A DNA stretch of 64,000 nucleotides from an uncultured Marinilabiliaceae bacterium. GTDB taxonomy: Bacteria; Bacteroidota; Bacteroidia; Bacteroidales; Marinilabiliaceae. A program made the translations under genes and the position numbers. This document shows, piece by piece, positions 10,216 to 23,899 of the stretch. The stretch is taken from assembly GCA_964521525.1 (NCBI GenBank), contig CAZFTD010000001.1:11630-75629 (forward strand), read 5' to 3'. The notes under the pieces were generated by a model. The model did not search any database. It was not told the origin of the DNA and saw only the letters and a list, made by a program, of their open reading frames with translations. Positions within the stretch are counted from its first letter, which is position 1. Each line of letters opens with the position of its first letter.

Positions 10216-10680
10216 CCTTTTCATTATATTTCCGTATTATTACAGACTTATTGTTTTACAAAAAAATATTTAAAAACGTTTTAAATGTTTGATTAGAATA
10301 CCGAATGCTAAATTAATTTGACTCTAATCATTTAAACATAAAATGCCATAAACAGTTGTTATTATGATATTTATATAACTTTTACGACACCAAATTCTCA
10401 AAATTAAAGGGGAAATTGTTTTAGATACTGTTTAAATTTAGATGTAAGATTGTTAGAGAAAATTTAGAAGTTTTTATAGAAGTTTTGGCATCTTTACCAG
10501 ACTTATCTATCCGTCAAATAATCTTAAATCTAAACATCTTAATAAAAATTTCAATATTAAATTTAAACAGGATATAAGTTGTTTATTGTTGGTAAAAGAT
10601 ATATAAAGCAAGAAAGTTAAATCCTTTGTTCATTTTAACCACCAGGCTGTTATCAAAAAACCTTAATAAATTTTTTAAGG

Positions 10681-12558
10681 ATGAAAAAAATTAAAATAAA
10701 ATCGCTGTTAACAAAATATAGTTTTCAAGGAGCCGTGCTAGGGGTTATTGTTTCCCTTATAATATTTCTTTTAAGCATGGACTCCCCTATTTATAAAACA
10801 ACCAACAGCTCGTTTATCGATCTGTTTACGCTTTTTCCTGCCTTATGGGCTGTGTTGCTGATACCCGTTGTTGGCGCCCTGTCTGGATATTTTGTTGCCA
10901 GGCGGTTTTCGTCCATTATTAAAAAGCAATCTAATAAATTAAAAAAAGAAGCCAGTCGTACCGAAATGGTTCTTTCGTTTATCGACAATTTAAGACAGGA
11001 CAAATTAGACGAGCCCATCAACGTCAAAGATAAAAACGATTCACTTACACAAGCCCTTTTAAACTTAAGGGGCTTTATGGTTCAAAGCAAGCAGGAGCAA
11101 CAACAGCGCCGGATTGAAGAGGAACAAAGAAACTGGGTTACGCAGGGGCTGGCTCAATTTGGTGAAATTCTGCGTCAAAATACAGATAACCTCGAAGAGC
11201 TTTCATACAATATTATTCGCTACCTTGTTACCTACCTCAAAGTTAATCAGGGTGGCGTTTTTCTGGTTAATCAAACCAAAGCCGGTGAAAAATATCTTGA
11301 GATGACCGCCTGCGTTGCCTATGACCGTAAAAAATTTGCCGATAAAGTTATTAATTGGGGTGAAGGCCTTTTAGGCCGCTGTGCTCTGGAAAAAGAAACC
11401 ATCTTTATAACCGATGTTCCTAACAACTATATAACCATCACATCCGGGCTGGGTGACTCCAACCCGGGAACTCTTCTTCTGGTTCCTTTAAAAACCAATG
11501 AAGAGTTGTTTGGGGTTATTGAGCTTGCTTCATTTCAAATACTTCAGAAATTTGAAATTGAATTTGTTGAAAAAACAGCTGAAAGCATTGCCTCTACCAT
11601 TGCCACGGTAAAAAACAACATTCAAACCACAAAATTGCTTCGGGAAACACAAATTCAGGCCGAAAAAATGTCGCAACAGGAAGAAGAACTGCGTCAAAAC
11701 CTTGAAGAAATGCGTGCCACTCAGGAGGAAAGCGATCGACGGGAAATTGAACGTAAGGGCATTCTGGATGCCATTGACCATGCTGCCATCTCTTGTGAAT
11801 TTGATACCACCGGAACACTTTTATCGGTTAACGAGAATTTCCTGAAAACTTTTAAATACAAGCCGGAGGAGGTTGAAGGGCAGCACCTTAAGATATTCTT
11901 TTTTAAAGATGACGTAAGCGAATTAGACCGCATATTGGCCGACCTTTCTAACGGTCATAACTTCCGTGGACGCGTGCGCAGAAGAACCAAAGCCGGCGAA
12001 GAAATTTACCTGTTAACCACCTATAGTCCTGTAATTGACCACAATGGCGAAATTTTGAAAATTCTTAGCCTCGAAAACGATGTAACAGAACAGGTTAAAA
12101 TGGAAGAGGCCCTCAAACATGCCAAAGAGGAACTCGGTTTACTGCTCGAGGAAGCACGAAACGAAGTGAAGGAACAGTTCAAGGAAATTGAATCAGTTAA
12201 AATAAGAAACGAAAAAACCCTTGAAGGAGCACTTGATGCCATTATTACAACAAACAGGGAGGGGGTTCTTGAATTCTTTAATGCTGCTGCCGAAAAACTA
12301 TGGGGTTATGACCGCAGCGAGGTGCTGGGTCAAAATGTATCAATGCTCTTCTCAAAAGAAACAGCCAAAACCAACATGTTTGTTTCTGGATTTATTTCAA
12401 GCGATGGACAAAAAATTGTGGGCGAGCGCCGTGAAATACCAATCCGCAACAAATATGGCGAAGATATACCCGTTCTATTTTTGCTTTCAGAAGCAAAAGT
12501 AGGCGACGACCATTCATTCACTGCTTTTATACAAAATGTTGAAGTAGAATTATTTTAA
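10681..12558 (+). CDS. Membrane sensor: 2 TM, coiled coil, GAF, E/Q-rich coiled coil, PAS, PAS; no output domain
   Basis: TM segments near residues 15-32 and 45-72. GAF signature ITSGLGDSNPGTLLLVPLKTNEELFGVIELASF. Two PAS-like blocks. The protein ends right after the second PAS. Confidence 0.85.
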   Translation: MKKIKIKSLLTKYSFQGAVLGVIVSLIIFLLSMDSPIYKTTNSSFIDLFTLFPALWAVLLIPVVGALSGYFVARRFSSIIKKQSNKLKKEASRTEMVLSFIDNLRQDKLDEPINVKDKNDSLTQALLNLRGFMVQSKQEQQQRRIEEEQRNWVTQGLAQFGEILRQNTDNLEELSYNIIRYLVTYLKVNQGGVFLVNQTKAGEKYLEMTACVAYDRKKFADKVINWGEGLLGRCALEKETIFITDVPNNYITITSGLGDSNPGTLLLVPLKTNEELFGVIELASFQILQKFEIEFVEKTAESIASTIATVKNNIQTTKLLRETQIQAEKMSQQEEELRQNLEEMRATQEESDRREIERKGILDAIDHAAISCEFDTTGTLLSVNENFLKTFKYKPEEVEGQHLKIFFFKDDVSELDRILADLSNGHNFRGRVRRRTKAGEEIYLLTTYSPVIDHNGEILKILSLENDVTEQVKMEEALKHAKEELGLLLEEARNEVKEQFKEIESVKIRNEKTLEGALDAIITTNREGVLEFFNAAAEKLWGYDRSEVLGQNVSMLFSKETAKTNMFVSGFISSDGQKIVGERREIPIRNKYGEDIPVLFLLSEAKVGDDHSFTAFIQNVEVELF

Positions 12559-12573
12559 TAACACCCCTTAAGC

Positions 12574-13422
12574 ATGCAGAATAGCGGAGAGGATATTACA
12601 TTTAAAGAATATCTGCAAATACTTAAGGATTCCTCACCTTACGATTTCAGTGAATATTCCGATAATTCGATATACAGGCGCATCCATAAGGTTATGCGCG
12701 ATTACCGGCTGAGCTTAAACGAATTAGTGGCAAAAACAAAATCAGACCAGGATTTTGTAGAGCAAATTGTTGAGGCAATTACAGTTAATACCACCGAACT
12801 ATTTCGTGACCCCTCGGTTTGGGTTTACATATTGCAAAAGCTGCTACCTCAATTTAAAAATAAACCTAACATAAATATTTGGCACGCAGGATGTTCATCA
12901 GGTCAGGAGGTTTATTCCAACCTAATTTTACTCAATCATCTGGGACTTTTAAAACAATCGACTGTTTATGCTACCGACATAAGTCAAAAAGTACTCGACC
13001 AAGCTAAAAAAGGAATATATAAGTATCGGTTTAATTTAAATTACATCGAAAACTTTAATCAGGTTTTGGGTGTTAACGAACCCAAAGTTGATTTTTCAAA
13101 GTATTTCGATATCAATGAATCAGAAGACAAAATTGTGGTTAAAGAATTCTTAAGAACATTACCTAAATTTATAAAGCATGATCTGGTTCAGGAAAAACTG
13201 CCGTTCTATAATAAATTTGACATCATTTTTTGCCGAAACGTATTGATTTATTTTAATCCGGACTTACAGTCGCGCATCATTCAACGATTTCACGATAATC
13301 TTTTTCCTGGTGGGTCTATGATTTTAGGCACGCACGAAGCCATAACCGGATTCTTTAAAACCAAGTTCGTTAAAAACGGTCCGGTATATTCAAAAAGCAA
13401 CGTATTTCATTTTAAATATTAA
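12574..13422 (+). CDS. CheR-type SAM-dependent methyltransferase (paralogue 2)
   Basis: TTELFRDPSVW, IWHAGCSSGQEVYS, ATDIS...AKKGIY, IFCRNVLIYFN. Confidence 0.88.
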   Translation: MQNSGEDITFKEYLQILKDSSPYDFSEYSDNSIYRRIHKVMRDYRLSLNELVAKTKSDQDFVEQIVEAITVNTTELFRDPSVWVYILQKLLPQFKNKPNINIWHAGCSSGQEVYSNLILLNHLGLLKQSTVYATDISQKVLDQAKKGIYKYRFNLNYIENFNQVLGVNEPKVDFSKYFDINESEDKIVVKEFLRTLPKFIKHDLVQEKLPFYNKFDIIFCRNVLIYFNPDLQSRIIQRFHDNLFPGGSMILGTHEAITGFFKTKFVKNGPVYSKSNVFHFKY

Positions 13423-13424
13423 AA

Positions 13425-14249
13425 GTGAACTTCAGTATAACTGATATCAAAGAATTGACCTTTTCCATGTTGGGCTATCCCAATATGGACTATACCAACT
13501 ATTCTTTATCGTTTTTAAAAAGAAGGTTGGCAATAGTTTTCACAAGCTTAAACATTAGGCGAAAAGATCAATTTCTTGAAATGCTGAAGAAAAAGGATTT
13601 CAGAGATCAGGTAATCACACGCATGTTGGTTGATAATACTGAGATGTTCAGAGACCCGGCTTTTTGGCGTATGCTAAGAGATAAAATTGTAAAGGATTTG
13701 CCCTCCAATAGCGCCATATGGTTTCCATGCGAAAGCAGTGGAGAGGAAGTTTATTCATTATCCATTATTCTTCACGAGCAAAATCTTGCATCCCGATTTA
13801 AATTAATTTGCAGCAACCCATCCATTGAAAAAGGTAATGCCATTAACCAAGGTAAGTTAAACGCAAAGCTCTTCGATTTAAATCACACAAATTACAGGCG
13901 TTTAGAAGAAAATGAATTATTCGATTCATATTTCACTATACAGAACGGTCATCTGTTTGTTTGCGAAAAATTAAGAGAAAATGTAAATTGTGTACACGGA
14001 AGTATTTCTGACACCATACCTTCAGGAGTTGTGTCGCTCATATTATTTAGAAATGTATCCATATATTATAATCATCGTCAGGCAGCCTCTGTTTTTGATA
14101 TATTATATGAAAAACTAATGCCGGGAGGTTTTCTCGTTATAGGAGTTAAGGAAAAACTCCCTGAAAAAATTGCCGACAAAATGATAGTAATCGACGAAAC
14201 AGAAAAAATTTACAAAAAACCTTTGCCGCGAACCAATGGATTATATTAA
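13425..14249 (+). CDS. Divergent CheR-like protein (paralogue 3, GTG start)
   Basis: NTEMFRDPAFW is retained, but IWFPCESSGEEVYS, CSNPS (in place of the (T/S)DIS motif: ATDIS / GSDIS), INQGKL (in place of KGIY) and LFRNVSIYYN have diverged. Confidence 0.75.
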   Translation: MNFSITDIKELTFSMLGYPNMDYTNYSLSFLKRRLAIVFTSLNIRRKDQFLEMLKKKDFRDQVITRMLVDNTEMFRDPAFWRMLRDKIVKDLPSNSAIWFPCESSGEEVYSLSIILHEQNLASRFKLICSNPSIEKGNAINQGKLNAKLFDLNHTNYRRLEENELFDSYFTIQNGHLFVCEKLRENVNCVHGSISDTIPSGVVSLILFRNVSIYYNHRQAASVFDILYEKLMPGGFLVIGVKEKLPEKIADKMIVIDETEKIYKKPLPRTNGLY

Positions 14250-14820
14250 ATCAGACAGAAATTTTAAACTCATAGTTTTGGGTGGTTCTGCAGGAAGTTT
14301 TTCTGTAGTATCAAAAATTTTGTCTCAATTAAAACCCGATTTTAAAATACCTTTGATTCTTTCGCTGCATCGGTTAAAACACCTACGGTCGGGGTTGGTG
14401 GAAAGCCTCAGTTATAAATCGGCCATTGAAATCATTGAACCCTGCGATAAAGACAAAATCAATAACAACTTTGCATATCTGGCCCCATCGAACTACCACC
14501 TGTTTGTTGAATTCGATGGAACACTGTCGTTATCAACAGAAGAGTCGAACAACCATAGCCGGCCATCTATCGACTATACTTTATCGTCGGCGGCCTATGC
14601 CTACCGTGATAAAACATTGGGAATTCTGCTTACCGGAGCCAATCGCGATGGGGCTCAGGGGCTAAAAGATATTGCCGATCACAACGGATATACCATTGTG
14701 CAGGATCCTAAAACCTGTGATATTGATACCATGCCACAGTCTGCATTACGGTTGTTCACACCCAACCAGATTCTGACACCCGACCAAATTGTGCAATTTT
14801 TAAATAGCCTACCACAATGA
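14236..14820 (+). CDS. Receiver-less CheB-type methylesterase
   Basis: 194 aa, catalytic domain only. LIVLGGSAGSF, SLHRLKH, PSIDYTLSSAA, LLTGANRDGAQG. Overlaps the preceding gene by 14 nt. Confidence 0.85.
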   Translation: MDYIKSDRNFKLIVLGGSAGSFSVVSKILSQLKPDFKIPLILSLHRLKHLRSGLVESLSYKSAIEIIEPCDKDKINNNFAYLAPSNYHLFVEFDGTLSLSTEESNNHSRPSIDYTLSSAAYAYRDKTLGILLTGANRDGAQGLKDIADHNGYTIVQDPKTCDIDTMPQSALRLFTPNQILTPDQIVQFLNSLPQ

Positions 14821-15590
14821 ACATACAACTACTTAAAAAAAAATCGCTGATGTTTTGGCTTTTTTTATTGGCAGGCATTATTTTTCTGCTGTCAATAACT
14901 CGTTATTTTCTTTTCGAGGTGAACGCCGAATCGTGGTTTTATTATTTTGAAGTGACATCGTTCTTTTTGCTGATAGTCATGTTAATTCTGGCCGAAAAAC
15001 TTTATCATAACTATAACAATCAAATAATCCGCCAAAAAGAAAAGTATGAAAGCGAAATCAACGAATTGCTTGAAAAAAATGTGTCGTTAACAAGTAAAAT
15101 TTCTTTCTACGAAAGAGCTGAATTCGAAGCTTATGAGCTTAGTGAAAAACAGGATAAATTATTAAGCAGCATTGTAAACATGGGGGGGGCATCCAATCAC
15201 AGCCGAAGTTTTCTCAGTTTGTTTTCAGATGCAACACAGGCCATGTCGGCAATTCTTTACACAGAAACACAACCCTCGGGCAATTTTATCGTACAAGAAA
15301 CTTACGGTATTCCCGAAGATTACACCCCAGCTCCGTTTTCTATATCTGAAGGATTAAATGGTCAGGTTGTTGCCGAAGGAAAACCATTGGTAATAGAGGA
15401 AATACCAGAAGATTATTTTAATGTGCAATCGGGATTGGGAAATTCCAGACCACGATTTCTCTATTTTTTACCGGTTATAAAAGATAAAACGTGTGTGGCT
15501 TTAATTGAATTAGCTACCTTTAAAAAAACTGATTTAGAAAAAATGTGGCACCATGTTTCGGCCAAAATAATTGAAAAAGGATTATTATAA
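14817..15590 (+). CDS. Membrane protein: 2 TM, coiled coil, GAF
   Basis: ATGA start/stop overlap with the preceding gene. GAF signature DYFNVQSGLGNSRPRFLYFLPVIKDKTCVALIELATF is paralogous to those of the 10681 and 15600 proteins. Confidence 0.8.
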   Translation: MNIQLLKKKSLMFWLFLLAGIIFLLSITRYFLFEVNAESWFYYFEVTSFFLLIVMLILAEKLYHNYNNQIIRQKEKYESEINELLEKNVSLTSKISFYERAEFEAYELSEKQDKLLSSIVNMGGASNHSRSFLSLFSDATQAMSAILYTETQPSGNFIVQETYGIPEDYTPAPFSISEGLNGQVVAEGKPLVIEEIPEDYFNVQSGLGNSRPRFLYFLPVIKDKTCVALIELATFKKTDLEKMWHHVSAKIIEKGLL

Positions 15591-15599
15591 CAGAACGAA

Positions 15600-18212
15600 A
15601 TGCCTGTTAATACCAACAAAATAAAGGAATGGAGGAAACTATTCTCCCTTAAGGAGGTTTCCTACTCACAGAAATTCATCCTGTTTTCTTCAGTGATTTT
15701 TCTGCTTATTCTAATCTGGTCGGGATTTCTGGCTTTAAAAGAATCCAAACTTTCATTATTAAATATTATTGCCCTGCATAAAACAGTTTTAGTCTGGTTT
15801 ACAGATTTTCTGGTACTTGCACTGGCATTTTCTGGTATTGTTTACTATAATTTGCTGAAAAACAAGACTCAAAAACTTAGAAATGAAATAGCCGTTTTAA
15901 ATGAACGCATTACACATAACATTAACCTGGCCAATAATTTAAAGCAGGCTAAATGGGATGCACTCAAATCAAACGGAGACAGTTTATCCCAAGCACTATT
16001 AGATTTGGGTGAAAATATAAAAGAAAGCAATAAAAGAGAAGAAGAACAAAACTGGATAACCCTGGGTAAAGACCAAATATCGGAACTCCTTCGCAATGCT
16101 CATAATCTGGAAGACCTTTCTGTTTCGGTATTGAAGGCGCTTATCAATTACATGGGTGGTATTCAGGGAGCATTTTATCTCGAACAAAATAATATTTTGA
16201 AGCGAACAGGTATGTATGCCTACGGCCGCCGCCGGTTCGAATACAATGAAATACCAATTGGAAAGGGATTAATTGGTGCTGCCGCCTACGAAAAAGCACT
16301 AATTTTTCGGTCTGAAATACCCGATGATTATTTTACCATTACCTCAGGTTTACTGGGTGAGCAAAAGCCCAAAAGTATTTTACTGATACCGCTTTTACAG
16401 GAAGAAACTCTTCAGGGAGTTTTGGAAATCGCATTTCTCGAAAACCGAATCCCCCGGTTTAAAATTAGTTTTGCCGAAGAAGTTGGTTCCATCATAGGCC
16501 AAACCATATACAACCTTAAGATTACCACCCGTACCGAAATGCTTTTGAAAGAATCGCAGGAAATGACTAGTACTCTCAAGAAAAATGAAGAGCAGCTGCG
16601 TCAAAATGCCCGCGAAATGATTGAAGCCCAGGAAGAATTGGAGCGCAGCAACCAAATGCTTGAAAAGCAGATACAAGAGGTAGCCAATTCGCAAAAGAAA
16701 CTGGAAGCGTTGCTCACCAATGCCTCTGAGTTTATTTCAATCTACGACGAAAATCAGGAGTTGGTATTCGAGAGTCCTTCAGTAAAACGAATATTGGGTT
16801 ATTCCGACAATGATATCGTAACTGGTATGGATCCTGAGGTTCTAACTCCCCGTGGACTAAAAACCATTAACCAGTTATTCCAATACCTGATTGATACTCC
16901 GGGAGGCGAGCAAACAGCACAATATACCTACCTAAGAAAGAACGGTGAAAAACTTTTCCTCGAAACCAAAGGAAAAAACCTCCTGCACGACCCTGCCATT
17001 CGCGGTATAATCTTTAACACTCAGGATATTACTGAGCGGAAGCGAGCCGAAAAAGAGGAGCGTATGAAAAGCCGTATGCAAAGTTTGTCTGAAAACTCTC
17101 CGGATATGATTATCCGTATCAACCTGTTTGGCAAACTAATTTATGTAAATCCGGCTGTTGCTAGTTTTATCGATCTGCCTGCTGCCGATCTGGTTAAGAA
17201 AAGAATTGTGGATCTTGAAATTGACCCGCGATTTATCGATTTCATGCAGGAAACGCTGGCCTATATTAAAGAACAACAACAACAAATAATTTCCGAAGTG
17301 GCCGTTAGTTCTCAAAATGGAGAACGAATAATGGAAATAAAGGCAATTCCTGAACTTGGCGAAGAAGGTGAATTAGAAACCATTCTTTTTGTTGCTCATG
17401 ATATGACCGAGTTCAAAAAAATAGAACAGGAAATAAAAGAGAAAAACAAAAAGATTTCTGATAGTATCAATTATGCCCAACGTATTCAAACGTCAATTTT
17501 ACCCGATACACGTCTGTTGCAGGAATTCTTCCCCCGATCGTTTATTTTCTATCGACCAAAGGATGTGGTGAGTGGCGATTTCCCCTGGTTTTTCCGTAAA
17601 GACAACATTTACTACATAGCTGCCGTAGATTGTACCGGACATGGTGTGCCCGGAGCTCTCATAAGTTTTATCGGGCACTTCCTGCTAAATAACATTGTAA
17701 GTTTGGAGCACAATCTCACAGCATCTCAAATTCTTGACAACCTCCATCTTGAAGTTAGAAGTACGCTAAAGCAAGACCAGGAAGGGGCTTTAGGCCGCGA
17801 TGGTATGGATTTGGCACTTTGTAAAATCGACCCTGATAACCAAACACTTGAATTCTCAGGAGCCCACCGTCCGCTTTATTTTTTACGGAAAGGAGAATTA
17901 ACCGAATATCAAGGCACACGAAAGGGCATTGGCGGTATTCCTTTGGCAAAAAAAGTAGAGAAAGACTTTGAAAATCATATCATTCATTACCAAAAAGGCG
18001 ACCAGATATTTATTTTCAGCGATGGATTACCCGACCAGTTAGGCGGCCCCGAGCGAAAAAAATATCAGGCCAAAAGGATACGTGAAGCTTTAACCGAAAA
18101 ACCAGATGCATCAATGGCGCATTTCTCACGCTACTTTTCAATGGACTTTTATGAATGGTTAGGCGATGAAAAACAAGTTGATGATGTACTTTTGATTGGA
18201 ATTGAATTGTAA
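15600..18212 (+). CDS. Membrane sensor phosphatase: TM, coiled coil, GAF, E/Q coiled coil, PAS, PAS, PP2C/SpoIIE (SiaA/RsbU-like)
   Basis: PP2C motifs YAQRIQTSILPD, SGDFPWF, AVDCTGHGVPGA, GRDGMDLAL, FSDGLPDQ, VDDVLLIG. The GAF and PAS blocks resemble those of the 10681 protein. Confidence 0.9.
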   Translation: MPVNTNKIKEWRKLFSLKEVSYSQKFILFSSVIFLLILIWSGFLALKESKLSLLNIIALHKTVLVWFTDFLVLALAFSGIVYYNLLKNKTQKLRNEIAVLNERITHNINLANNLKQAKWDALKSNGDSLSQALLDLGENIKESNKREEEQNWITLGKDQISELLRNAHNLEDLSVSVLKALINYMGGIQGAFYLEQNNILKRTGMYAYGRRRFEYNEIPIGKGLIGAAAYEKALIFRSEIPDDYFTITSGLLGEQKPKSILLIPLLQEETLQGVLEIAFLENRIPRFKISFAEEVGSIIGQTIYNLKITTRTEMLLKESQEMTSTLKKNEEQLRQNAREMIEAQEELERSNQMLEKQIQEVANSQKKLEALLTNASEFISIYDENQELVFESPSVKRILGYSDNDIVTGMDPEVLTPRGLKTINQLFQYLIDTPGGEQTAQYTYLRKNGEKLFLETKGKNLLHDPAIRGIIFNTQDITERKRAEKEERMKSRMQSLSENSPDMIIRINLFGKLIYVNPAVASFIDLPAADLVKKRIVDLEIDPRFIDFMQETLAYIKEQQQQIISEVAVSSQNGERIMEIKAIPELGEEGELETILFVAHDMTEFKKIEQEIKEKNKKISDSINYAQRIQTSILPDTRLLQEFFPRSFIFYRPKDVVSGDFPWFFRKDNIYYIAAVDCTGHGVPGALISFIGHFLLNNIVSLEHNLTASQILDNLHLEVRSTLKQDQEGALGRDGMDLALCKIDPDNQTLEFSGAHRPLYFLRKGELTEYQGTRKGIGGIPLAKKVEKDFENHIIHYQKGDQIFIFSDGLPDQLGGPERKKYQAKRIREALTEKPDASMAHFSRYFSMDFYEWLGDEKQVDDVLLIGIEL

Positions 18213-18254
18213 TTATATTTACGTAAATTTAGACACTATTTTGAAATAAACGTC

Positions 18255-18818: not shown

Positions 18819-18832
18819 TAAAATTAAGCACC

Positions 18833-19213
18833 ATGAACAATATAAACATCAAAGGTACCGATGATACCCCTTCTGTAATTCTTGACAAGGATAAGGGTTT
18901 GTTTGAAATTTCCGGAAGATCCTTACCGGAGGATGTAAATATGTTTTATGAACAAATTCTGGACTGGATTGACGAATATGCCAAAAGTCCCAACGACAGA
19001 ACAGAATTCAACTTTAAACTGGAGTATTTTAACACGGCTTCTTCAAAAGTCATTCTCGATATTCTTCTTAAATTTGAGGAGATTGTAGAAAATGGAAAAG
19101 AGGTGGTAATTAAATGGCATTACCATGAAGATGAGGAAGATATGCTGGAAGCTGGCGAAGAATATGCCGATATAGTAGAAATTCCTTTTGATTACGTGGT
19201 TTATAATCAATAA
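18833..19213 (+). CDS. DUF1987 / SiaC-like partner-switch phosphoprotein
   Basis: 126 aa. IKGTDDTPSVILDKDKGLFEISGRSLPED...FNFKLEYFNTASSK...VIKWHYHEDEEDMLEAGEEY matches my memory of DUF1987 family hallmarks. Confidence 0.7.
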   Translation: MNNINIKGTDDTPSVILDKDKGLFEISGRSLPEDVNMFYEQILDWIDEYAKSPNDRTEFNFKLEYFNTASSKVILDILLKFEEIVENGKEVVIKWHYHEDEEDMLEAGEEYADIVEIPFDYVVYNQ

Positions 19214-19237
19214 ACCTGTTTGATTGACGTTTAAAAA

Positions 19238-22200
19238 ATGAGCGAAGAAATTCTTAAAGCCCTAATGCAACTGTTTGGCTTGCTGACCAAACAGGACGGC
19301 GGTGTGGAATCCAATGAAACCGAGTACGTGCGTACTTTTCTGAAACAGCAGCTTAATAGCGAGGCGGTTGAAGAGTACTTCTCTCTTTTTTTAAGTTTTA
19401 CCGAAGAGGATAATAAAAGCCGCAATGGCGAGGAGGAAGGAAAAGTTCAACTTACTTCCATGAAAGACTCGGTAAAGATTCTCGGCATTTGCAAAAAAAT
19501 TAATAAGCAGCTCAACCGCGAACAAAAAGTAGTGGTACTGGTTCGGCTCTACGAACTTATCAGCATGGACATGAAGCTGACCGACCAGCGCATGGCCATC
19601 ATCAATACGGTTGCCGATGTTTTTAAACTGCCTAAAAACGAAATTCTTGCCATTGAGGCTTTTGTTCTTCAAAACGACCCCGAAAAACTCGGCTTCCCGG
19701 ATATTTTAATTGCCAACGACCGCGAAGTAGATAACGTTCATTATAAACACATTACCACCACAGGCCTACATGGAGCCATTCTGGTTTTAAACGTTAAAAG
19801 TGCCGATTTGTACTTTATGCGGTATACCGGCAATCAGGACGTTTTTCTAAATGGTCTTATTATCAGCAACAAAAGAATTTATCTGTTCCCCAAAGGAAGT
19901 TTTATCAGAATCCCCAAAGGCAAACCAATTTATTACACCGATGTTGTAAGCCGTTTTCTTGAAGATGCTGATTCTCCAAAGATTTCGTACGAAGTTAAGA
20001 ACGTTCATTTCCGCTTTAAAACCGGCGATGTTGGATTGCGTAACATCAATATTGCTGAAGAACAAGGGCGACTGATTGGAATAATGGGTGCATCGGGCGC
20101 CGGCAAAACCACCCTTCTCAATGTTTTATCGGGCATAGAAAAGCCAACCGAAGGCGAAGTTCTCATAAACAATTATAACCTGCACACCGATAAGGAAGAA
20201 CTTAATGGTGTTATCGGTCTAATTCCACAGGACGACCTGCTCATTGAAGAACTTACGGTTTTTGAGAACCTCTATTACAACGCCAAACTTTGTTTTAAAG
20301 ATAAGGGAGAAGAGGAATTAACCAACCTTGTTAACGAAACCCTTCAAAACCTCGGACTTTTCGAGCGCCGGCACCTGAAAGTTGGTTCGCCACTCAATAA
20401 AATGATTAGTGGTGGCCAAAGAAAACGATTGAATATTGCGCTTGAGCTCATCCGCCAACCCTCAGTATTGTTTGTTGATGAGCCAACATCAGGGCTTTCA
20501 TCGCGCGATTCGGAAAACGTGATGAACCTGCTTCAGGAATTGGCACTTAAAGGGAAATTGATTTTTGTTGTTATTCACCAGCCATCATCGGACATTTATA
20601 AAATGTTCGATAAAATGTTTATTCTCGATACCGGCGGGTACCCCGTGTATTATGGCAACCCCGGCGAATCGCTTATTTATTTTAAACAACTCGATGCCCA
20701 GATTAACAGCGATCAGGGTGAATGCCCAACATGTGGGAACCTTAATCCCGAATTAATTTTCAATATTATCGATGCCAATGTTATTGATGAATATGGAAAT
20801 TATACCAACAAACGAAAAGTGACTCCTGAAGAGTGGTTCCATCATTACGAAAAAACCCATTCCGTACCTGTTGTTAAAACCATTCAAACATCTCCACCAA
20901 AAAGCCTGAACATTCCTTCGTGGTTTAATCAGTTTAAAATTTACACCTTACGCGATTTTTTTTCAAAAATCAGTAATACGCAATATATTGCGTTGAACCT
21001 GCTGGAAGCGCCTTTGCTGGGTTTTATTCTTGCTTATTTGGTGCGTTACATCGCCGACCCAACCTCCAGCATTTATATTTTCCGCGAAAACGAAAACATC
21101 CCGCCCTATATTTTTATGGGCATTGTGGTGGCTTTGTTTTTTGGATTGATTATTAGCGCCGAGGAAATTTTTAAAGATGCCAAAATATTAAAAAGAGAGT
21201 CGTTCCTGAATTTGAGCCGCTCCAGCTATTTGAGTTCTAAAATTTTACTGTTGTTTACCATTTCTGCCATTCAGATGGTTCTGTTTGTATTGGTAGCCAA
21301 TAGTGTGCTGGGTATCAAAGATATGTACTTTGAATTTTGGATTGCACTCTTCTCCATTTCGGCATTTGCTAATATTCTGGGTTTGATTTTATCGGCTTCG
21401 TTTAATTCAATTGTTACCATATATATTCTTATTCCACTGGTAATGATACCCCAGATGGTTTTAGGCGGCGCCATGTTTACTTTCGATAAGTTAAACAAAG
21501 ATTTCACAAGCGTTGATAAAGTTCCGGCGGTGGCTGAATTTATGCCATCGAGGTACGTTTACGAAGGATTAATTGTGCACCAGTATAAACACAATAATTT
21601 TAAAAAGAACATTTTTGACGTTGAACTTGAAGAGAGCAAAAGTGATTTCAAGCAGGTACATTATATACCTGAATTGCGACAGATTTTAAACGAATGCTCT
21701 ATTCACGTAATTAATGGCAAAGCAAAAAATGATAAAACGTTTGTCAATAACCTTCAGTTAATTCGGAATGAGATTTCAAAAGAAATGATGCGGGTTCCTG
21801 ATTTGCCATTTGCATCGATGGATAAACTATCGCCCGAATATTTCGATACAGCTGTTGCGGCTAGTGTAGACAACTACCTTAACGATTTGCTAAAATACTA
21901 CAGAGGTGTATTTTCAAAAGCAAACTCCTTAAAAGATAGGTTTATCAGCACCAATCTCGATCAGGATGCTGCCCGCTTTAACCGCATTAAGGACGATTAT
22001 TTTAACGAGAGTATTTCTTCAATAGTACGAAAAGAGTTTGAGAAAAATAAAATTCTTCGCCAGGGAAATAATCTGGTACAAATGGCCGATCCTATTTACC
22101 AGATTCCTGAGCCATCGGGCTTTTTATCGTTCAGAACGCACTTTTTTGCACCGGTTAAACACTTAGGTGGGCACTTTTTTGAAACCCTCTGGTTTAACAT

Positions 22201-22306
22201 AACAATTGTTTGGATTTTAACTGCACTGCTTTATGCTGTACTCTACTTTGATCTTCTTAAGAAGGGGCTTAACCTTTTGGGATCAATTAAATGGAGAAAA
22301 AAGTAA
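19238..22306 (+). CDS. ABCG-type ATPase-permease fusion with a TerB-like and an FHA-like N-terminal region and a long C-terminal extension
   Basis: Walker A GASGAGKTTLLNVLSG, signature ISGGQRKRLNIA, Walker B VLFVDEPTSGL. An ABC-2-type membrane domain of roughly 5-6 TM segments follows, then about 270 aa and a final TM. Confidence 0.85.
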   Translation: MSEEILKALMQLFGLLTKQDGGVESNETEYVRTFLKQQLNSEAVEEYFSLFLSFTEEDNKSRNGEEEGKVQLTSMKDSVKILGICKKINKQLNREQKVVVLVRLYELISMDMKLTDQRMAIINTVADVFKLPKNEILAIEAFVLQNDPEKLGFPDILIANDREVDNVHYKHITTTGLHGAILVLNVKSADLYFMRYTGNQDVFLNGLIISNKRIYLFPKGSFIRIPKGKPIYYTDVVSRFLEDADSPKISYEVKNVHFRFKTGDVGLRNINIAEEQGRLIGIMGASGAGKTTLLNVLSGIEKPTEGEVLINNYNLHTDKEELNGVIGLIPQDDLLIEELTVFENLYYNAKLCFKDKGEEELTNLVNETLQNLGLFERRHLKVGSPLNKMISGGQRKRLNIALELIRQPSVLFVDEPTSGLSSRDSENVMNLLQELALKGKLIFVVIHQPSSDIYKMFDKMFILDTGGYPVYYGNPGESLIYFKQLDAQINSDQGECPTCGNLNPELIFNIIDANVIDEYGNYTNKRKVTPEEWFHHYEKTHSVPVVKTIQTSPPKSLNIPSWFNQFKIYTLRDFFSKISNTQYIALNLLEAPLLGFILAYLVRYIADPTSSIYIFRENENIPPYIFMGIVVALFFGLIISAEEIFKDAKILKRESFLNLSRSSYLSSKILLLFTISAIQMVLFVLVANSVLGIKDMYFEFWIALFSISAFANILGLILSASFNSIVTIYILIPLVMIPQMVLGGAMFTFDKLNKDFTSVDKVPAVAEFMPSRYVYEGLIVHQYKHNNFKKNIFDVELEESKSDFKQVHYIPELRQILNECSIHVINGKAKNDKTFVNNLQLIRNEISKEMMRVPDLPFASMDKLSPEYFDTAVAASVDNYLNDLLKYYRGVFSKANSLKDRFISTNLDQDAARFNRIKDDYFNESISSIVRKEFEKNKILRQGNNLVQMADPIYQIPEPSGFLSFRTHFFAPVKHLGGHFFETLWFNITIVWILTALLYAVLYFDLLKKGLNLLGSIKWRKK

Positions 22307-22364
22307 CTTTTATTTTTCATAATAGTATAAAAGACAATATTTGAAAACTTTAAATCGCTTTATC

Positions 22365-23282
22365 ATGTTGAAGAATTTATTTTATTTTTTGTTAATACTA
22401 TCCGGAACACAGTTATTTATCAGCTGCGGCGGTTGTTCGGATAAAAAATCAAAAAGCGGCGATGCGCTTACTCTCAATGATTCACTAATTAGTGATGCGC
22501 CGTTGAAATTATCGGAAGATATTATGGGAGAAGTTATCCAAAACATCTCTTCGCCTGTTGAAATGGCTAATCTTATTAAATCATCGGGAGCAGAATTTTC
22601 GCAGCGCATTTTAAATAATCCAGATAATGTATCCCGCTATGAGACCTCTTATAAAAGAGCTTTAAACCTGGGCGTTTTTAGTGCCGATTTGGGTTACATT
22701 AACATTTACGATAAAAATAATGTGGTAGTATCGTACCTTTTGGCGGTAAAAAACCTGGCCGATGGTATCAGAGTTGGGCAATTTTTCGATTTTAATGCAC
22801 TGCGCCGTATGGCGTCCAACTCAACCAACCTTGACTCGCTGATGGAAATGTCGGTAACCAGTTTCAATAAAATGGACTCTTACCTGCGCGACCAGAACCG
22901 CAGCAACGTTAGTACACTAATTGTAACCGGAACCTGGATTGAAGGGCTATATATTGCTTCAAGCGTTGTTAAAGAAACAAAAAGTAAGGAGTTGGCTATT
23001 CGTATTGCCGAGCAAAAAAATATTATCGATATTCTTGAAATCATCTTAAGTAACTATATTAGCGAGCCTAATTTTGCTACATTGGTTGAAGATATTCGCG
23101 AGTTAAAGGCTGCTTATGCCCCTATCAGAATAACAACTGAGCTGGCAGAGCCAAAGAGAATTGAGAAAGATGGTACGCTTATTGTTATTCAGGATGAAAT
23201 AAGCACAGTTCACTATACTGAGGAGCAACTGGCTACTATTATGGAACTTATTTCTAAAATCCGTAATAGAATTATTGAATAG
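22365..23282 (+). CDS. Lipoprotein of unknown function
   Basis: Start moved to the ATG at 22365. Signal peptide with lipobox (LFISC). I recognise no family. Confidence 0.65.
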   Translation: MLKNLFYFLLILSGTQLFISCGGCSDKKSKSGDALTLNDSLISDAPLKLSEDIMGEVIQNISSPVEMANLIKSSGAEFSQRILNNPDNVSRYETSYKRALNLGVFSADLGYINIYDKNNVVVSYLLAVKNLADGIRVGQFFDFNALRRMASNSTNLDSLMEMSVTSFNKMDSYLRDQNRSNVSTLIVTGTWIEGLYIASSVVKETKSKELAIRIAEQKNIIDILEIILSNYISEPNFATLVEDIRELKAAYAPIRITTELAEPKRIEKDGTLIVIQDEISTVHYTEEQLATIMELISKIRNRIIE

Positions 23283-23393
23283 TTTTGCATAAATATCCAT
23301 GCAAAAAGTTAGAAGATAAAATTGTGAAATTAAAGCCGGCTGTTACATGTAACCGCTTGTTTTATTTTACCTTAACAAACAAATTTTGACAAT

Positions 23394-23846
23394 ATGAAAA
23401 AAGTATTATTGGGCTTAATACTTGTACTTTCAATAAGTTCTTTCAGCGCCTCGGCACAACAGTGTGATGAATCGCTTAAGAAACAGGCTTTGAAAGAAAT
23501 GGGAGACAGCCAATACATTAAAGACTTTTCCATTGATTTGCGAAAAGCCAAAAAAGATATGAAAACAGGCTTTGTAAAATTCTCTGTGATTTTGCACAGT
23601 CGCAACCAATATAGATTTACAGTTGTTAACCACCCCGGTAATCCCGAAGAGGTTGTGATGCAATTGTTTGATGGTGACCGTTTGCTAATCAGCAATTTTG
23701 AAGGTGGAAAAATATCAAAAGCCCCTGATTTTGTTTGCCGTACCACCAAGGTTTACCACCTCACCTTTTCGTTCCGAAGTGGTGAAGAGGGTTGTGCCGA
23801 GGCTGTAATTTCTTTAGTGAAACAGTATGCAGAAGGTGAATTATAA
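23394..23846 (+). CDS. Small secreted protein of unknown function
   Basis: Signal peptide MKKVLLGLILVLSISSFSASA. I recognise no family. Confidence 0.6.
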   Translation: MKKVLLGLILVLSISSFSASAQQCDESLKKQALKEMGDSQYIKDFSIDLRKAKKDMKTGFVKFSVILHSRNQYRFTVVNHPGNPEEVVMQLFDGDRLLISNFEGGKISKAPDFVCRTTKVYHLTFSFRSGEEGCAEAVISLVKQYAEGEL

Positions 23847-23864: not shown

Positions 23865-23899
23865 AAAAAGCGTTCGGTTAAGTTAACCGAACGCTTTTT
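23865..23899. terminator. Bidirectional stem-loop terminator between convergent genes
   Basis: AAAAAGCGTTCGGTTAA-G-TTAACCGAACGCTTTTT: 17-nt perfect arms with an A-run on one side and a T-run on the other. Confidence 0.8.

What the first reader, a model, noticed from the sequence alone, without database searches (positions are those of the whole stretch)
10681..23846. Candidate undescribed signalling system: CheR/CheB-type methylation enzymes coupled to GAF-PAS sensors, a SiaABC-like partner switch and an ABCG transporter, with no MCP, CheA or GGDEF
A 465-nt AT-rich spacer precedes nine co-directional genes that are packed or overlapping. The junctions are 15 nt, 2 nt, a 14-nt overlap, an ATGA overlap, 9 nt, 42 nt, 14 nt and 24 nt. 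In order they encode: TM-GAF-PAS-PAS with no output; a CheR-type methyltransferase; a divergent CheR-like protein; a receiver-less CheB-type esterase; TM-GAF; TM-GAF-PAS-PAS-PP2C; a SiaB-like kinase; a DUF1987/SiaC-like protein; and a 1022-aa ABCG-type transporter. A lipoprotein and a small secreted protein follow, ending at a strong terminator (23865-23899).

Established knowledge covers two separate pieces. CheR and CheB act on MCP glutamates. In Pseudomonas aeruginosa, SiaA (PP2C) and SiaB (kinase) toggle SiaC phosphorylation to control the diguanylate cyclase SiaD. This block has no MCP signalling domain, CheA, CheW, receiver domain or GGDEF/EAL domain. My inference is that reversible methylation of the GAF-PAS sensors themselves tunes a Ser/Thr partner switch, whose output is something other than c-di-GMP synthesis, possibly the adjacent transporter. 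I do not know of a described pathway with this wiring.
Basis: partly seen in the sequence, partly recalled or inferred. Interest (0 to 1): 0.88.

Follow-up and report, generated by a model that had tools for sequence, protein, structure and literature searches.

The report
Conserved Bacteroidota CheR/CheB–SiaABC–ABC exporter cassette
This is a real gene cassette conserved in hundreds of Bacteroidota species, in which a SiaABC-type phosphorylation switch sits next to a specialised ABC exporter instead of a c-di-GMP synthase and usually carries chemotaxis-type methylation enzymes with no chemoreceptor, a wiring I found described in no paper.

Summary
All eleven ORFs, all eight junctions, the domain calls, the 465-nt AT-rich spacer and the terminator are as described.

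The neighbourhood is strongly conserved. The exporter's N-terminal module is encoded in at least 563 stretches of a one-genome-per-species collection. Among 61 loci with enough upstream DNA:
- 60 have SiaB-SiaC directly before the ABC gene.
- 55 have the GAF-PAS-PP2C phosphatase.
- 51 have CheR, CheR', receiver-less CheB and TM-GAF.
- Only 9 abut a Che cluster.

No GGDEF motif occurs in the window or in 87 loci.

- In this genome a complete Che cluster lies directly upstream (962-10215), so "no MCP/CheA" holds only inside the block.
- The second CheR lacks the SAM-ribose Asp in all 61 orthologues, so it is probably not a normal enzyme.

One new finding: the exporter starts with a TerB-like domain plus an FHA-like β-sandwich. 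That makes it a plausible docking target for SiaC, whose Thr68 is kept in 83 of 84 orthologues.

The methylation substrate is unresolved. No cassette protein carries a conserved MCP-type methylation motif. TM-GAF co-occurs strictly with CheB.

Verdict: a new variant of a known kind. Interest 0.65.

The parts
962..10215 (+). Adjacent complete Che cluster: MCP 962-2671, CheY 3037-3402, CheA 3794-5845, CheW 5871-6323, CheW 6338-6826, CheR1 6830-7699, small HisKA/HATPase kinase 7735-8634, CheD 8646-9116, REC-CheB1 about 9139-10215. This is context, not part of the core cassette.
   Evidence: Pfam. The MCP has two canonical methylation-consensus sites, at aa 306 and 454. Adjacency to the cassette is conserved only in Marinilabiliaceae-type loci (L001, L002 and 9 of 61 surveyed).
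10216..10680 (.). 465-nt AT-rich spacer (about 22% GC) between CheB1 and the cassette. It is the likely promoter region of the cassette in this genome.
   Evidence: The equivalent gap has a median of 60 nt (range 16-509) in 11 related loci, so separate transcription is not a conserved feature.
10681..12558 (+). GafPas: 2TM, HAMP-like linker, GAF, coiled coil, PAS, PAS, with no output domain. Optional member of the cassette.
   Evidence: 33.5% identical to the N-terminal 343 aa of the SiaA-like protein. Present in 38 of 61 loci, in two alternative positions.
12574..13422 (+). CheR2: CheR-type SAM methyltransferase with intact SAM motifs and a CheR_N domain.
   Evidence: Pfam 134 bits. Aligns to CheR structures 5xly and 1af7. 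GCSSGQEVYS, ATD (D135) and CRNVxIYF are conserved in at least 90% of 57 orthologues.
13425..14249 (+). CheR3: divergent CheR paralogue, probably catalytically impaired or an adaptor.
   Evidence: Pfam CheR 70 bits. The position of the conserved ATD Asp is S/H/T/Y/V/N, and never Asp, in 61 orthologues, while SSGEE and RN..IY are kept. The family is essentially restricted to this cassette.
14236..14820 (+). CheB2: receiver-less CheB-type methylesterase/deamidase with an intact catalytic triad.
   Evidence: Pfam 153 bits. Aligns to 3sft and 1chd. S18, H45 and D138 are conserved in at least 90% of 66 orthologues.
14817..15590 (+). TMGAF: 2TM, Glu-rich linker and GAF. It is translationally coupled to CheB2 (ATGA overlap) and is the best candidate partner or substrate of CheR/CheB.
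   Evidence: It follows CheB2 in 66 loci with a median gap of 3.5 nt. It is present in all 51 CheB2-positive loci and in none of the 10 CheB2-negative loci. The linker is 20% E+Q against a 12% background.
15600..18212 (+). SiaA-like sensor phosphatase: 2TM, HAMP-like linker, GAF, coiled coil, PAS, PAS, PP2C (SpoIIE).
   Evidence: NCBIfam SiaA C-terminal match, 164 bits. The PP2C metal-site motifs GDF, DCTGHG, DGMD, SDG and DD are conserved in at least 93% of 71 orthologues.
18255..18818 (+). SiaB-family protein kinase (DUF6272).
   Evidence: NCBIfam SiaB_fam_kinase 170 bits against a cut-off of 85. Aligns to P. aeruginosa SiaB, 6kko_A.
18833..19213 (+). SiaC-family phosphoprotein (DUF1987) with the Thr68 phosphosite.
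   Evidence: Pfam SiaC 144 bits. Colinear alignment to 6kko_C/6k4f with YFNT68ASSK against YLNT68SSIK. Thr68 is present in 83 of 84 orthologues.
19238..22306 (+). ABCG/ABC-2-type exporter, 1022 aa. From the N terminus: cytoplasmic TerB-like helical domain (aa 1-145), FHA-like β-sandwich (aa about 156-245), NBD, 6-TM ABC-2 domain, then a roughly 220-aa C-terminal extension ending in a TM helix. Proposed output of the switch.
   Evidence: AF2 model with pLDDT 85. Foldseek top hits are almost all FHA domains. SiaC to ABC adjacency in 84 loci. The β-domain family has 363 representatives, all in such transporters.
22341..23282 (+). Conserved lipoprotein. The true start is probably 22365 (305 aa). 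Helical bundle plus a small sheet, function unknown.
   Evidence: 1095 homologue clusters, all annotated as hypothetical. Invariant lipobox Cys. Present downstream in 71 of 80 loci. No structural match.
23394..23846 (+). Small secreted protein (150 aa, signal peptide), function unknown.
   Evidence: Present in 69 of 80 loci directly after the lipoprotein, median gap 11 nt. No Pfam or PDB match.
23865..23899 (+). Intrinsic-terminator-like hairpin (16-bp stem) closing the cassette.
   Evidence: The genes beyond it (DUF3999, DUF2339) are on the opposite strand.

Best explanation
The block is one conserved signalling-plus-export cassette of Bacteroidota.

Core (inferred mechanism). A SiaB-family kinase and a membrane-anchored GAF-PAS-PP2C phosphatase (SiaA-like) set the phosphorylation state of a SiaC-family protein on Thr68. 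One phospho-state of SiaC then docks on the cytoplasmic TerB/FHA-like N-terminal module of the adjacent ABCG-type exporter and gates it. The exporter takes the place that the diguanylate cyclase SiaD holds in Pseudomonas. It works with a dedicated envelope lipoprotein and a small secreted protein; its substrate is unknown.

Accessory input layer, present in about 84% of cassettes (more speculative). It comprises an active CheR-type methyltransferase (CheR2), a degenerate CheR paralogue (CheR3, probably an adaptor), a constitutively active receiver-less CheB-type esterase/deamidase, and a small 2TM-GAF protein. These most likely act on the paralogous membrane GAF sensors, with TM-GAF the first candidate, then GafPas or SiaA-like. 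The effect would be to reset the phosphatase's sensitivity, by analogy with receptor adaptation.

What is shown and what is not:
- Shown: gene content, conserved order and tight junctions, intact catalytic and phospho-acceptor residues, absence of GGDEF, and the FHA-like fold of the exporter module.
- Inferred: the SiaC-exporter contact, the direction of regulation, and the identity of the methyl acceptor.
For: (1) The cassette is conserved far beyond this genome.
- At 32-49% marker identity the same order recurs with the Che cluster (L001, L002) and without it (L003-L006, L088).
- A one-genome-per-species scan found at least 563 relatives of the exporter N-terminus.
- In 61 loci with at least 8.5 kb upstream: SiaB+SiaC 60, SiaA 55, CheB2 51, CheR3 50, CheR2 50, adjacent CheB1 only 9.

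(2) Junctions are short across loci. Median gaps: SiaB-SiaC 13 nt, CheB2-TMGAF 3.5, CheR3-CheB2 3, SiaC-ABC 38.

(3) The minimal form, in Carboxylicivirga, is SiaB-SiaC-ABC-Lipo-Sec. Draconibacterium has SiaA-SiaB-SiaC-ABC without CheR/CheB. The switch-exporter pair is therefore the core, and the methylation genes are an add-on.

(4) SiaC Thr68 is conserved in 83 of 84 orthologues. SiaB scores above the NCBIfam family cut-off. The PP2C motifs are conserved.

(5) The exporter N-terminus models confidently (pLDDT 85) as TerB-like helices plus a β-sandwich whose best PDB matches are FHA domains: MEK1, CEP170, Rad53, KIF1A, EmbR, EssC and DgcB. This β-domain occurs only in such transporters.

(6) No RxGGDEF motif occurs in the 64-kb window or in 87 loci.

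(7) The CheB2 triad and the CheR2 SAM motifs are conserved. TMGAF is present in 51 of 51 CheB2-positive loci and 0 of 10 CheB2-negative loci.

(8) The literature proposes that DUF1987 proteins generally modulate the adjacent protein (PMC8457831).
Against: - No experiment and no interaction prediction supports a SiaC-exporter contact.
- The FHA similarity is at fold level only. Foldseek E-values are 0.02-0.5, Pfam gives no FHA hit, the profile search reaches no canonical FHA protein, and there is no invariant Arg of the FHA 'GR' motif.
- In Pseudomonas it is unphosphorylated SiaC that binds its target, which an FHA-type pThr reader would not explain.
- No cassette protein carries a conserved MCP-type methylation consensus.
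- The Glu-rich GAF-PAS linker is just as conserved where CheR/CheB are absent.
- The strict TMGAF-CheB2 co-occurrence rests on only two or three independent loss events.
- In this genome, and in one rumen MAG, an MCP gene is next to the cassette.
- The exporter's substrate and the roles of the two envelope proteins remain unknown.
Confidence: 0.55

Rival explanations
1. CheR2/CheR3/CheB2 are ordinary chemoreceptor-modifying enzymes. They methylate and demethylate classical MCPs: the MCP at 962-2671 here, and MCPs elsewhere in other genomes. They are merely co-located or co-regulated with an independent SiaABC-exporter operon. The GAF proteins are not methylated.
For: - A complete Che cluster with an MCP carrying two canonical methylation sites lies directly upstream and is co-oriented. 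In Alkalitalea the gap is only 60 nt.
- One Bacteroidales MAG has a dCache-HAMP-MCP gene right after the cassette.
- CheR2 keeps the CheR_N domain and conserved basic residues (R35, R36, K39) typical of receptor-binding CheRs.
- No MCP-type methylation consensus is found in any cassette protein.
Against: - Only 9 of 61 cassettes abut Che genes. The rest are flanked by unrelated housekeeping genes.
- The Che cluster already has its own CheR1, CheB1 and CheD.
- CheR2, CheR3 and CheB2 form lineages 25-34% identical to CheR1 and CheB1. CheR3 homologues were found only inside the cassette.
- CheB2-TMGAF translational coupling and strict co-occurrence are conserved over deep divergence.
- Whether the stand-alone-cassette genomes encode any MCP could not be tested here.
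Confidence: 0.2
2. The SiaABC-like switch controls a target encoded elsewhere, such as a distant diguanylate cyclase, a transcription factor or another enzyme. The ABC exporter, lipoprotein and secreted protein are a co-transcribed but mechanistically separate module, or are themselves upstream of the switch, for example reporting transport load.
For: - In Pseudomonas, SiaC acts by protein-protein contact, so physical gene adjacency is not required.
- The exporter-Lipo-Sec trio occurs without SiaB/SiaC in at least two loci, L007 and L009.
- The FHA similarity is weak and lacks the canonical pThr-binding Arg.
Against: - SiaB-SiaC immediately precede the exporter in 60 of 61 loci, across Marinilabiliales, other Bacteroidales and Cytophagales.
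- The exporter occupies the position of siaD in the siaABCD order.
- The exporter has a conserved 250-aa cytoplasmic regulatory module found only in this transporter family.
- No GGDEF is present in any of 87 loci.
Confidence: 0.15
3. The CheR/CheB-type enzymes modify a non-sensor component, such as SiaC, SiaB or the exporter's acidic TerB module, rather than the GAF proteins.
For: - Nothing in the sequences singles out the GAF proteins chemically.
- The TerB module and the SiaC C-terminus are acidic.
Against: - Cassettes lacking CheR/CheB keep SiaB, SiaC and the exporter unchanged but lose TM-GAF.
- CheB2 is translationally coupled to TM-GAF, not to those genes.
Confidence: 0.07

Closest known systems
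SiaABCD partner-switch system of Pseudomonas aeruginosa: SiaA PP2C phosphatase, SiaB kinase, SiaC DUF1987 phosphoprotein, SiaD diguanylate cyclase. Sources: PMC7647112, PMC8457831; PDB 6kko, 6k4f.
   Same: - Same three protein families in the same order (phosphatase, kinase, SiaC).
- SiaB family score above the NCBIfam cut-off.
- SiaC aligns colinearly with Thr68 conserved.
- The phosphatase is membrane-anchored with a PP2C C-terminus matching the SiaA model.
-.
   Different: - There is no SiaD or GGDEF anywhere nearby. The fourth position is an ABCG-type exporter with a TerB/FHA-like regulatory head.
- The phosphatase's sensor part is GAF-PAS-PAS. NCBIfam SiaA matches only the C-terminal 260 residues, at 164 bits against a cut-off of 700.
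- Extra GAF paralogues and CheR/CheB-type genes are present.
- The host phylum is Bacteroidota, not Pseudomonadota.
Chemosensory adaptation module (CheR methyltransferase and CheB methylesterase acting on MCP glutamates), including ACF pathways such as Wsp. From my own knowledge of the field.
   Same: - CheR2 has a CheR_N domain, a CheR fold and intact SAM motifs.
- CheB2 has the Ser-His-Asp triad.
- The two enzymes are paired, as in adaptation systems.
   Different: - There is no MCP signalling domain, CheA or CheW in the cassette, and in most genomes none nearby.
- CheB2 has no receiver domain, so there is no CheA feedback.
- The second CheR lacks the SAM-ribose Asp.
- No MCP-type methylation consensus occurs in neighbouring proteins.
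CheR with receiver-less CheB embedded in non-chemotaxis sensor clusters. Examples: the Pseudomonas bmsA-cheR-cheB-hybrid-HK cluster (PMC8175716, mechanism stated there as not elucidated); CheB-CheR-PAS_10-PAS fusion proteins of Bacteroidota; the CHASE3-HK-CheR-CheB-HK cluster seen in L089.
   Same: - The CheR/CheB pair lacks MCP and CheA and sits beside PAS or GAF-type cytoplasmic sensors.
- The function of the methylation enzymes is equally unknown.
   Different: - Those clusters signal through histidine kinases and receivers. This cassette has no HK or receiver and signals through a Ser/Thr partner switch to a transporter.
- The enzymes are only 23-30% identical to the fusion protein's domains.
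FHA-domain-regulated ABCG-like exporter Rv1747 of Mycobacterium tuberculosis, regulated by the Ser/Thr kinase PknF. From my own knowledge; not checked in the paper library.
   Same: - An ABC-2/ABCG-type exporter with an N-terminal cytoplasmic β-sandwich of FHA-like fold.
- Genetically coupled to Ser/Thr phosphorylation.
   Different: - The FHA likeness here is detectable only by fold, not by Pfam or profile search.
- The module is preceded by a TerB-like domain.
- The kinase is a SiaB-type (GHKL-like) enzyme acting on a small partner protein, not a Hanks kinase acting on the transporter's own linker.

Membership tests
SiaABCD system | PP2C-type phosphatase (SiaA) with intact metal-binding motifs | tested here: met
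   SpoIIE Pfam 70 bits. NCBIfam SiaA C-terminal match 164 bits, below the equivalog cut-off of 700. The GDF, DCTGHG, DGMD, SDG and DD motifs are conserved in at least 93% of 71 orthologues.
SiaABCD system | SiaB-family kinase | tested here: met
   NF038262 SiaB_fam_kinase 170 bits against a cut-off of 85. The equivalog model NF038264 gives only 87 bits against 225. Aligns to 6kko_A.
SiaABCD system | SiaC (DUF1987) with the Thr68 phospho-acceptor | tested here: met
   PF09345 144 bits. T68 aligned to P. aeruginosa SiaC and present in 83 of 84 orthologues. The NCBIfam equivalog gives 91 bits against a cut-off of 150, so this is a family member, not an orthologue.
SiaABCD system | GGDEF diguanylate cyclase (SiaD) as the co-encoded output | tested here: not met
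   No GGDEF domain in any cassette ORF. No RxGG[DE]EF motif in six frames of the 64-kb window or of 87 related loci.
Chemosensory (Che) pathway | MCP signalling domain, CheA and CheW within the system | tested here: not met
   Absent from 10681-23846. Present in the separate upstream cluster 962-10215. Only 9 of 61 related cassettes abut Che genes.
Chemosensory (Che) pathway | CheR with an intact SAM-binding site | tested here: met
   Met for CheR2. Not met for CheR3, in which the ATD Asp is replaced in all 61 orthologues.
Chemosensory (Che) pathway | CheB with the Ser-His-Asp triad and a regulatory receiver domain | tested here: inconclusive
   The triad (S18, H45, D138) is conserved. The receiver domain is absent: the protein is 194 aa and consists of the CheB_methylest domain only.
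Chemosensory (Che) pathway | Methyl-accepting substrate with the consensus [ASTG][ASTG]xx[EQ][EQ]xx[ASTG][ASTG] | tested here: not met
   Zero sites in the window's cassette proteins, against two in the upstream MCP. Across orthologues the sites are sporadic and not conserved. Actual methylation is not testable with these tools.
FHA-regulated ABC exporters (Rv1747-like) | ABC-2/ABCG-type NBD-TMD exporter | tested here: met
   ABC_tran 109 bits, ABC2_membrane 68 bits, TIGR00955 243 bits (below its cut-off). Six TM helices plus a C-terminal TM helix.
FHA-regulated ABC exporters (Rv1747-like) | FHA domain recognisable by sequence, with the pThr-binding Arg/Ser/Asn residues | tested here: not met
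   No Pfam FHA hit even at E=5. The profile search finds only 363 proteins, all of this transporter family. N205-G206 are invariant and S188 nearly so, but there is no invariant Arg.
FHA-regulated ABC exporters (Rv1747-like) | FHA fold | tested here: inconclusive
   AF2 pLDDT is above 90 over aa 180-240. The Foldseek top 30 hits are almost all FHA domains with probability about 1.0, but E-values are 0.02-0.5 and TM-scores 0.4-0.54.
CheR/CheB pairs in non-MCP sensor clusters | CheR with receiver-less CheB adjacent to cytoplasmic PAS/GAF sensors, without MCP or CheA | tested here: met
   Comparable contexts are seen in L078 and L089 and in the Pseudomonas bms cluster.
CheR/CheB pairs in non-MCP sensor clusters | Histidine-kinase/receiver phosphorelay as the signalling backbone | tested here: not met
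   No HisKA, HATPase_c histidine kinase or receiver domain in the cassette.

The most novel reading that the evidence does not exclude
CheR2 and CheB2 reversibly methylate, or deamidate, glutamyl residues of membrane GAF sensors that have no MCP signalling domain: TM-GAF first, possibly GafPas and the SiaA-like phosphatase. This would give a Ser/Thr partner switch an adaptation or memory layer, and the switch's SiaC protein would directly gate an ABC exporter through its FHA-like head. It would be the first methylation-adaptation system shown to operate outside MCP/CheA arrays, and the first SiaC-type switch with a transporter as its output.
Probability: 0.3. Interest if true: 0.85.

Novelty: new variant of a known kind. 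Interest (0 to 1): 0.65.

Why it matters
- SiaABC-type switches are known from one output, a diguanylate cyclase in Pseudomonas. This cassette shows the same switch fixed to an ABC exporter in hundreds of Bacteroidota species, which gives a concrete second output to test.
- Bacteroidota are a phylum without flagella, and the role of their CheR and CheB homologues is a long-standing puzzle. This cassette offers a compact, genetically tractable place to ask what those enzymes do when no chemoreceptor is present. There is one active CheR, one degenerate CheR, one receiver-less CheB and a strictly co-occurring small GAF protein.
- If the GAF sensors are the methyl acceptors, adaptation by reversible glutamate methylation would not be exclusive to MCP arrays.
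- The exporter family, with its TerB/FHA-like head, lipoprotein and secreted partner, is uncharacterised and widespread in anaerobic digesters, sediments, rumen and marine Bacteroidota.

Tried and rejected
- Sequence evidence for an FHA domain. Pfam at E=5 gave nothing. A profile of the β-domain searched against 1.84 billion representatives found only its own transporter family. Only fold similarity remains.
- Function of the lipoprotein and the secreted protein. There were no Pfam, NCBIfam or PDB sequence hits. The AF2 model of the lipoprotein (pLDDT 71) has no significant Foldseek match. This was a dead end.
- Search for the methyl-accepting site.
  - The canonical MCP consensus is absent or not conserved in all cassette families.
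  - The conserved Glu-rich heptad linker NEEQLRQNAEEMRATQEEL looked attractive, but it is equally conserved in SiaA orthologues from genomes without CheR/CheB, so it gives no specific support.
  - The TM-GAF linker is Glu/Gln-rich but not positionally conserved.
- Defence-system reading. PADLOC gives only generic methyltransferase and ABC-ATPase similarities. Rejected.
- Literature. No paper in the library links DUF1987/SiaC with CheR, or describes SiaABC homologues in Bacteroidota or with ABC transporters.
- Whether stand-alone-cassette genomes lack MCP and CheA altogether.
- Sigma-70 promoter scan. It is uninformative: 52 sites found against 40 expected, and Bacteroidota use a different promoter consensus.

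Full report
**1. Observation**

The preceding spacer (10216-10680) is 465 nt at about 22% GC. The 16-bp-stem hairpin at 23865-23899 is the strongest terminator-like site in the region. The genes beyond it (DUF3999, DUF2339) are on the other strand.

Profile searches confirm every domain call:

| Coordinates | Length | Domains |
|---|---|---|
| 10681-12558 | 625 aa | 2TM-GAF-PAS-PAS, no output domain |
| 12574-13422 | 282 aa | CheR_N + CheR |
| 13425-14249 | 274 aa | Divergent CheR |
| 14236-14820 | 194 aa | CheB_methylest only |
| 14817-15590 | 257 aa | 2TM protein with a weak GAF |
| 15600-18212 | 870 aa | 2TM-GAF-PAS-PAS-SpoIIE/PP2C |
| 18255-18818 | 187 aa | DUF6272 / SiaB-family kinase (170 bits, cut-off 85) |
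| 18833-19213 | 126 aa | SiaC-family protein |
| 19238-22306 | 1022 aa | ABC_tran + ABC2_membrane, with an N-terminal TerB hit |
| 22341-23282 | 313 aa | Lipoprotein, no family |
| 23394-23846 | 150 aa | Signal-peptide protein, no family |

**2.

A complete chemosensory cluster lies directly upstream on the same strand (962-10215). It encodes MCP, CheY, CheA, two CheW, CheR1, a small HisKA/HATPase kinase, CheD and REC-CheB1. Its MCP carries two canonical methylation-consensus sites. 'No MCP, CheA' is therefore true inside the block only.

**3. Conservation**

Homologues of the divergent CheR form a tight family of about 54 clusters. The named members are all Marinilabiliales (Alkalitalea, Thermophagus, Anaerophaga); below that family the hits are generic CheR proteins.

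Contexts of the marker gene:
- Alkalitalea saponilacus (49% identity) and Thermophagus xiamenensis (39%) have the entire 20-gene arrangement, Che cluster included. In Alkalitalea only 60 nt separate cheB1 from the first cassette gene.
- Three metagenomic relatives at 32-35% identity carry CheR, an optional HAMP-GAF-PAS, CheR', CheB', TM-GAF, GAF-PAS-PP2C, SiaB, SiaC, TerB-ABC, a 305-aa protein and a 145-aa protein. Unrelated housekeeping genes flank them on both sides.
- Fulvivirga maritima (Cytophagales) has a one-CheR version.
- A further contig has a variant with a duplicated SiaB.

I then aligned the exporter's first 255 residues and scanned one genome per species. The best 80 loci are all Bacteroidota, apart from two MAGs labelled Chlorobiota. 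One of them, an uncultured Marinilabiliaceae MAG, is 96-100% identical to the window's proteins, which identifies the source organism.

I assigned ORFs in all 87 loci by BLASTP to the window's proteins. The counts for the 61 loci with at least 8.5 kb upstream are:

| Gene upstream of the exporter | Loci (of 61) |
|---|---|
| SiaB + SiaC | 60 |
| SiaA-like | 55 |
| CheB2 | 51 |
| CheR3 | 50 |
| CheR2 | 50 |
| GafPas | 38 |
| Adjacent CheB1 | 9 |

The lipoprotein follows the exporter in 71 of 80 loci and the secreted protein in 69 of 80.

Junctions are short everywhere. Median gaps are CheR3-CheB2 3 nt, CheB2-TMGAF 3.5, TMGAF-SiaA 10, SiaB-SiaC 13 and SiaC-ABC 38.

Informative reduced forms:
- Carboxylicivirga has only SiaB-SiaC-ABC-Lipo-Sec, preceded by a stand-alone TerB protein.
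- Draconibacterium has an optional GafPas, then SiaA-SiaB-SiaC-ABC, without CheR, CheB or TM-GAF.
- Two loci have the exporter without SiaB/SiaC (L007, L009).

The architecture is therefore layered. The core is SiaB-SiaC-exporter-Lipo-Sec. The sensor phosphatase is usually present. A methylation/TM-GAF layer is present in about 84% of cassettes. A Che cluster is adjacent only in one family.

**4. State of the parts**

- SiaC aligns colinearly with P. aeruginosa SiaC (6kko, 6k4f), with Thr68 in YFNT68ASSK. Thr68 is kept in 83 of 84 orthologues.
- SiaB aligns to 6kko_A.
- The PP2C metal-site motifs are conserved in at least 93% of 71 SiaA-like sequences.
- CheB2 aligns to CheB catalytic domains (3sft, 1chd). 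Its Ser18-His45-Asp138 triad is conserved in at least 90% of 66 orthologues.
- CheR2 keeps the CheR SAM motifs, including the ATD aspartate and CRNVxIYF.
- CheR3 keeps SSGEE and RN..IY, but the ATD aspartate position is S/H/T/Y/V/N, and never Asp, in 61 orthologues. From general knowledge of class I methyltransferases and the CheR structure, that residue binds the SAM ribose. I therefore infer that CheR3 is a pseudo-enzyme or adaptor.
- CheR2, CheR3 and CheB2 are each only 23-34% identical to CheR1/CheB1 and to a CheB-CheR-PAS fusion protein found next to one cassette. They are separate lineages.
- The three GAF proteins are paralogues. GafPas and SiaA-like share 33.5% identity over their N-terminal 343 residues. 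All three have a two-TM hairpin with a minimal outside loop and the same GAF subtype, with the EGLxGQ, IPxxY, SGLG and IELAxF motifs.

**5. The exporter head**

An AlphaFold2 model of residues 1-255 (pLDDT 85, pTM 0.83) shows a seven-helix TerB-like domain followed by a β-sandwich at residues 156-245. In Foldseek against the PDB, the top 30 or so matches to this model are almost all FHA domains: MEK1, CEP170, Rad53 FHA1, KIF1A, EmbR, EssC and DgcB. Probability is about 1.0, but E-values are 0.02-0.5 and TM-scores 0.4-0.54.

Sequence methods do not see an FHA domain:
- Pfam gives no hit at E=5.
- A profile of the β-domain finds only 363 representatives among 1.84 billion proteins. All lie at residues about 150-250 of roughly 1000-aa transporters, or are fragments of them.
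- N205-G206 are invariant and S188 is nearly so, but no Arg is invariant.

The fold call is moderately supported. pThr binding remains open.

**6. Mechanism**

By position, the exporter replaces siaD in the siaABCD order. It carries a conserved cytoplasmic regulatory head that is private to this family. SiaB-SiaC precede it in 60 of 61 loci, and no GGDEF motif exists in the window or in any of the 87 loci. The eLife study of SiaC-SiaD proposed that DUF1987 proteins generally modulate the adjacent protein (PMC8457831). I therefore take the exporter to be the switch's output. This step is an inference.

For the methylation layer, the evidence in favour of a cassette-internal substrate is:
- independence from Che genes in 42 of the 51 loci that carry CheB2;
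- the presence of a separate CheR1/CheB1/CheD set where a Che cluster is adjacent;
- the strict co-occurrence (51 of 51 against 0 of 10) and translational coupling of TM-GAF with CheB2.

The evidence against is:
- No cassette protein has a conserved MCP-type methylation consensus.
- The highly conserved Glu-rich linker between GAF and PAS is just as conserved in Draconibacterium proteins that lack CheR/CheB.
- The co-occurrence reflects few independent events.
- MCP genes are adjacent in this genome and in one rumen MAG.

I could not test whether stand-alone-cassette genomes lack MCPs altogether.

**7. Comparison with known systems and novelty**

The cassette works like a SiaABC partner switch and passes three of the four SiaABCD membership features. 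It fails the GGDEF output.

It is not a Che pathway. MCP, CheA and CheW are absent, CheB has no receiver, and one CheR is degenerate.

CheR with receiver-less CheB next to non-MCP sensors is a known but unexplained genomic pattern. Examples:
- the Pseudomonas bmsA-cheR-cheB-hybrid-HK cluster, whose mechanisms are described as 'yet to be elucidated' (PMC8175716);
- a CHASE3-HK-CheR-CheB-HK cluster in L089;
- CheB-CheR-PAS fusions.

All of those use histidine kinases, whereas this cassette uses a Ser/Thr partner switch.

An FHA-bearing ABCG-like exporter regulated by Ser/Thr phosphorylation is known from M. tuberculosis Rv1747. That comparison comes from my own knowledge, and here only the fold resembles it.

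Searches of the paper library found nothing that links DUF1987/SiaC to CheR, to ABC transporters or to Bacteroidota.

I classify the finding as a new variant of a known kind. All the parts are familiar, but the conserved wiring and the output are new.

**8. Verdict**

| Item | Assessment |
|---|---|
| Observation | Confirmed |
| Interpretation | Partly supported |
| Best explanation (SiaABC-type switch gating the adjacent exporter, with an accessory CheR/CheB/TM-GAF input layer) | Confidence about 0.55 |
| Specific claim that GAF sensors are methylated | Probability about 0.3 |
| Interest | 0.65 |

Interest would rise to about 0.85 if non-MCP methylation were demonstrated.

Noticed in passing
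window 962-10215: Complete Che cluster in a Marinilabiliaceae genome, a phylum without flagella. It includes CheD and an unusual small HisKA/HATPase kinase (7735-8634) inserted between cheR and cheD. The gene order is conserved in Alkalitalea and Thermophagus. Its output is unknown.
   Followed up: partly
L089:6993-14702: A different non-MCP context for CheR and receiver-less CheB: CHASE3 hybrid HK, CheR, CheB, REC-PAS-HK, REC, Hpt-REC. It resembles the Pseudomonas bmsA-cheR-cheB cluster mentioned in PMC8175716.
   Followed up: partly
L078:15299-19018: A 1239-aa CheB-CheR-PAS_10-PAS fusion protein lies immediately downstream of a cassette. Its coiled coil of NEELQxxNEEL heptads contains one exact MCP methylation-consensus match (GTSNEELQAT at aa 693), which hints at self-methylation in that family.
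   Followed up: partly
L067:14648-16480: A dCache-HAMP-MCP gene directly follows the cassette in a goat-rumen Bacteroidales MAG. It is the only such case among about 80 loci.
   Followed up: partly
L019:8271-8645 (also L015-L018): In Carboxylicivirga the cassette is reduced to SiaB-SiaC-ABC-Lipo-Sec. A stand-alone 124-aa TerB-domain protein sits just upstream of SiaB. No phosphatase lies within 9 kb.
   Followed up: partly
L088:14041-15145: A cassette variant with two tandem SiaB-family (DUF6272) genes, a single CheR, and a 151-aa GAF protein in place of TM-GAF.
   Followed up: no
window 23939-27595 (- strand): A convergent DUF3999 + DUF2339 (large predicted membrane protein) gene pair lies right after the cassette's terminator. 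Its function is unknown.
   Followed up: no
window 13062-13089: A 10-pair terminator-like hairpin on the + strand lies inside the CheR2 coding sequence. It is probably a chance match, since 18 sites were found against 13 expected in the region.
   Followed up: no
window 22341 vs 22365: The mechanical TTG start of the lipoprotein ORF is probably 8 codons too early. Homologues are 305 aa and align from MLKNLFYF.
   Followed up: partly
window 55067-58780 (- strand): A 1237-aa multi-PAS histidine kinase lies elsewhere in the window. It was not examined for any relation to the cassette.
   Followed up: no
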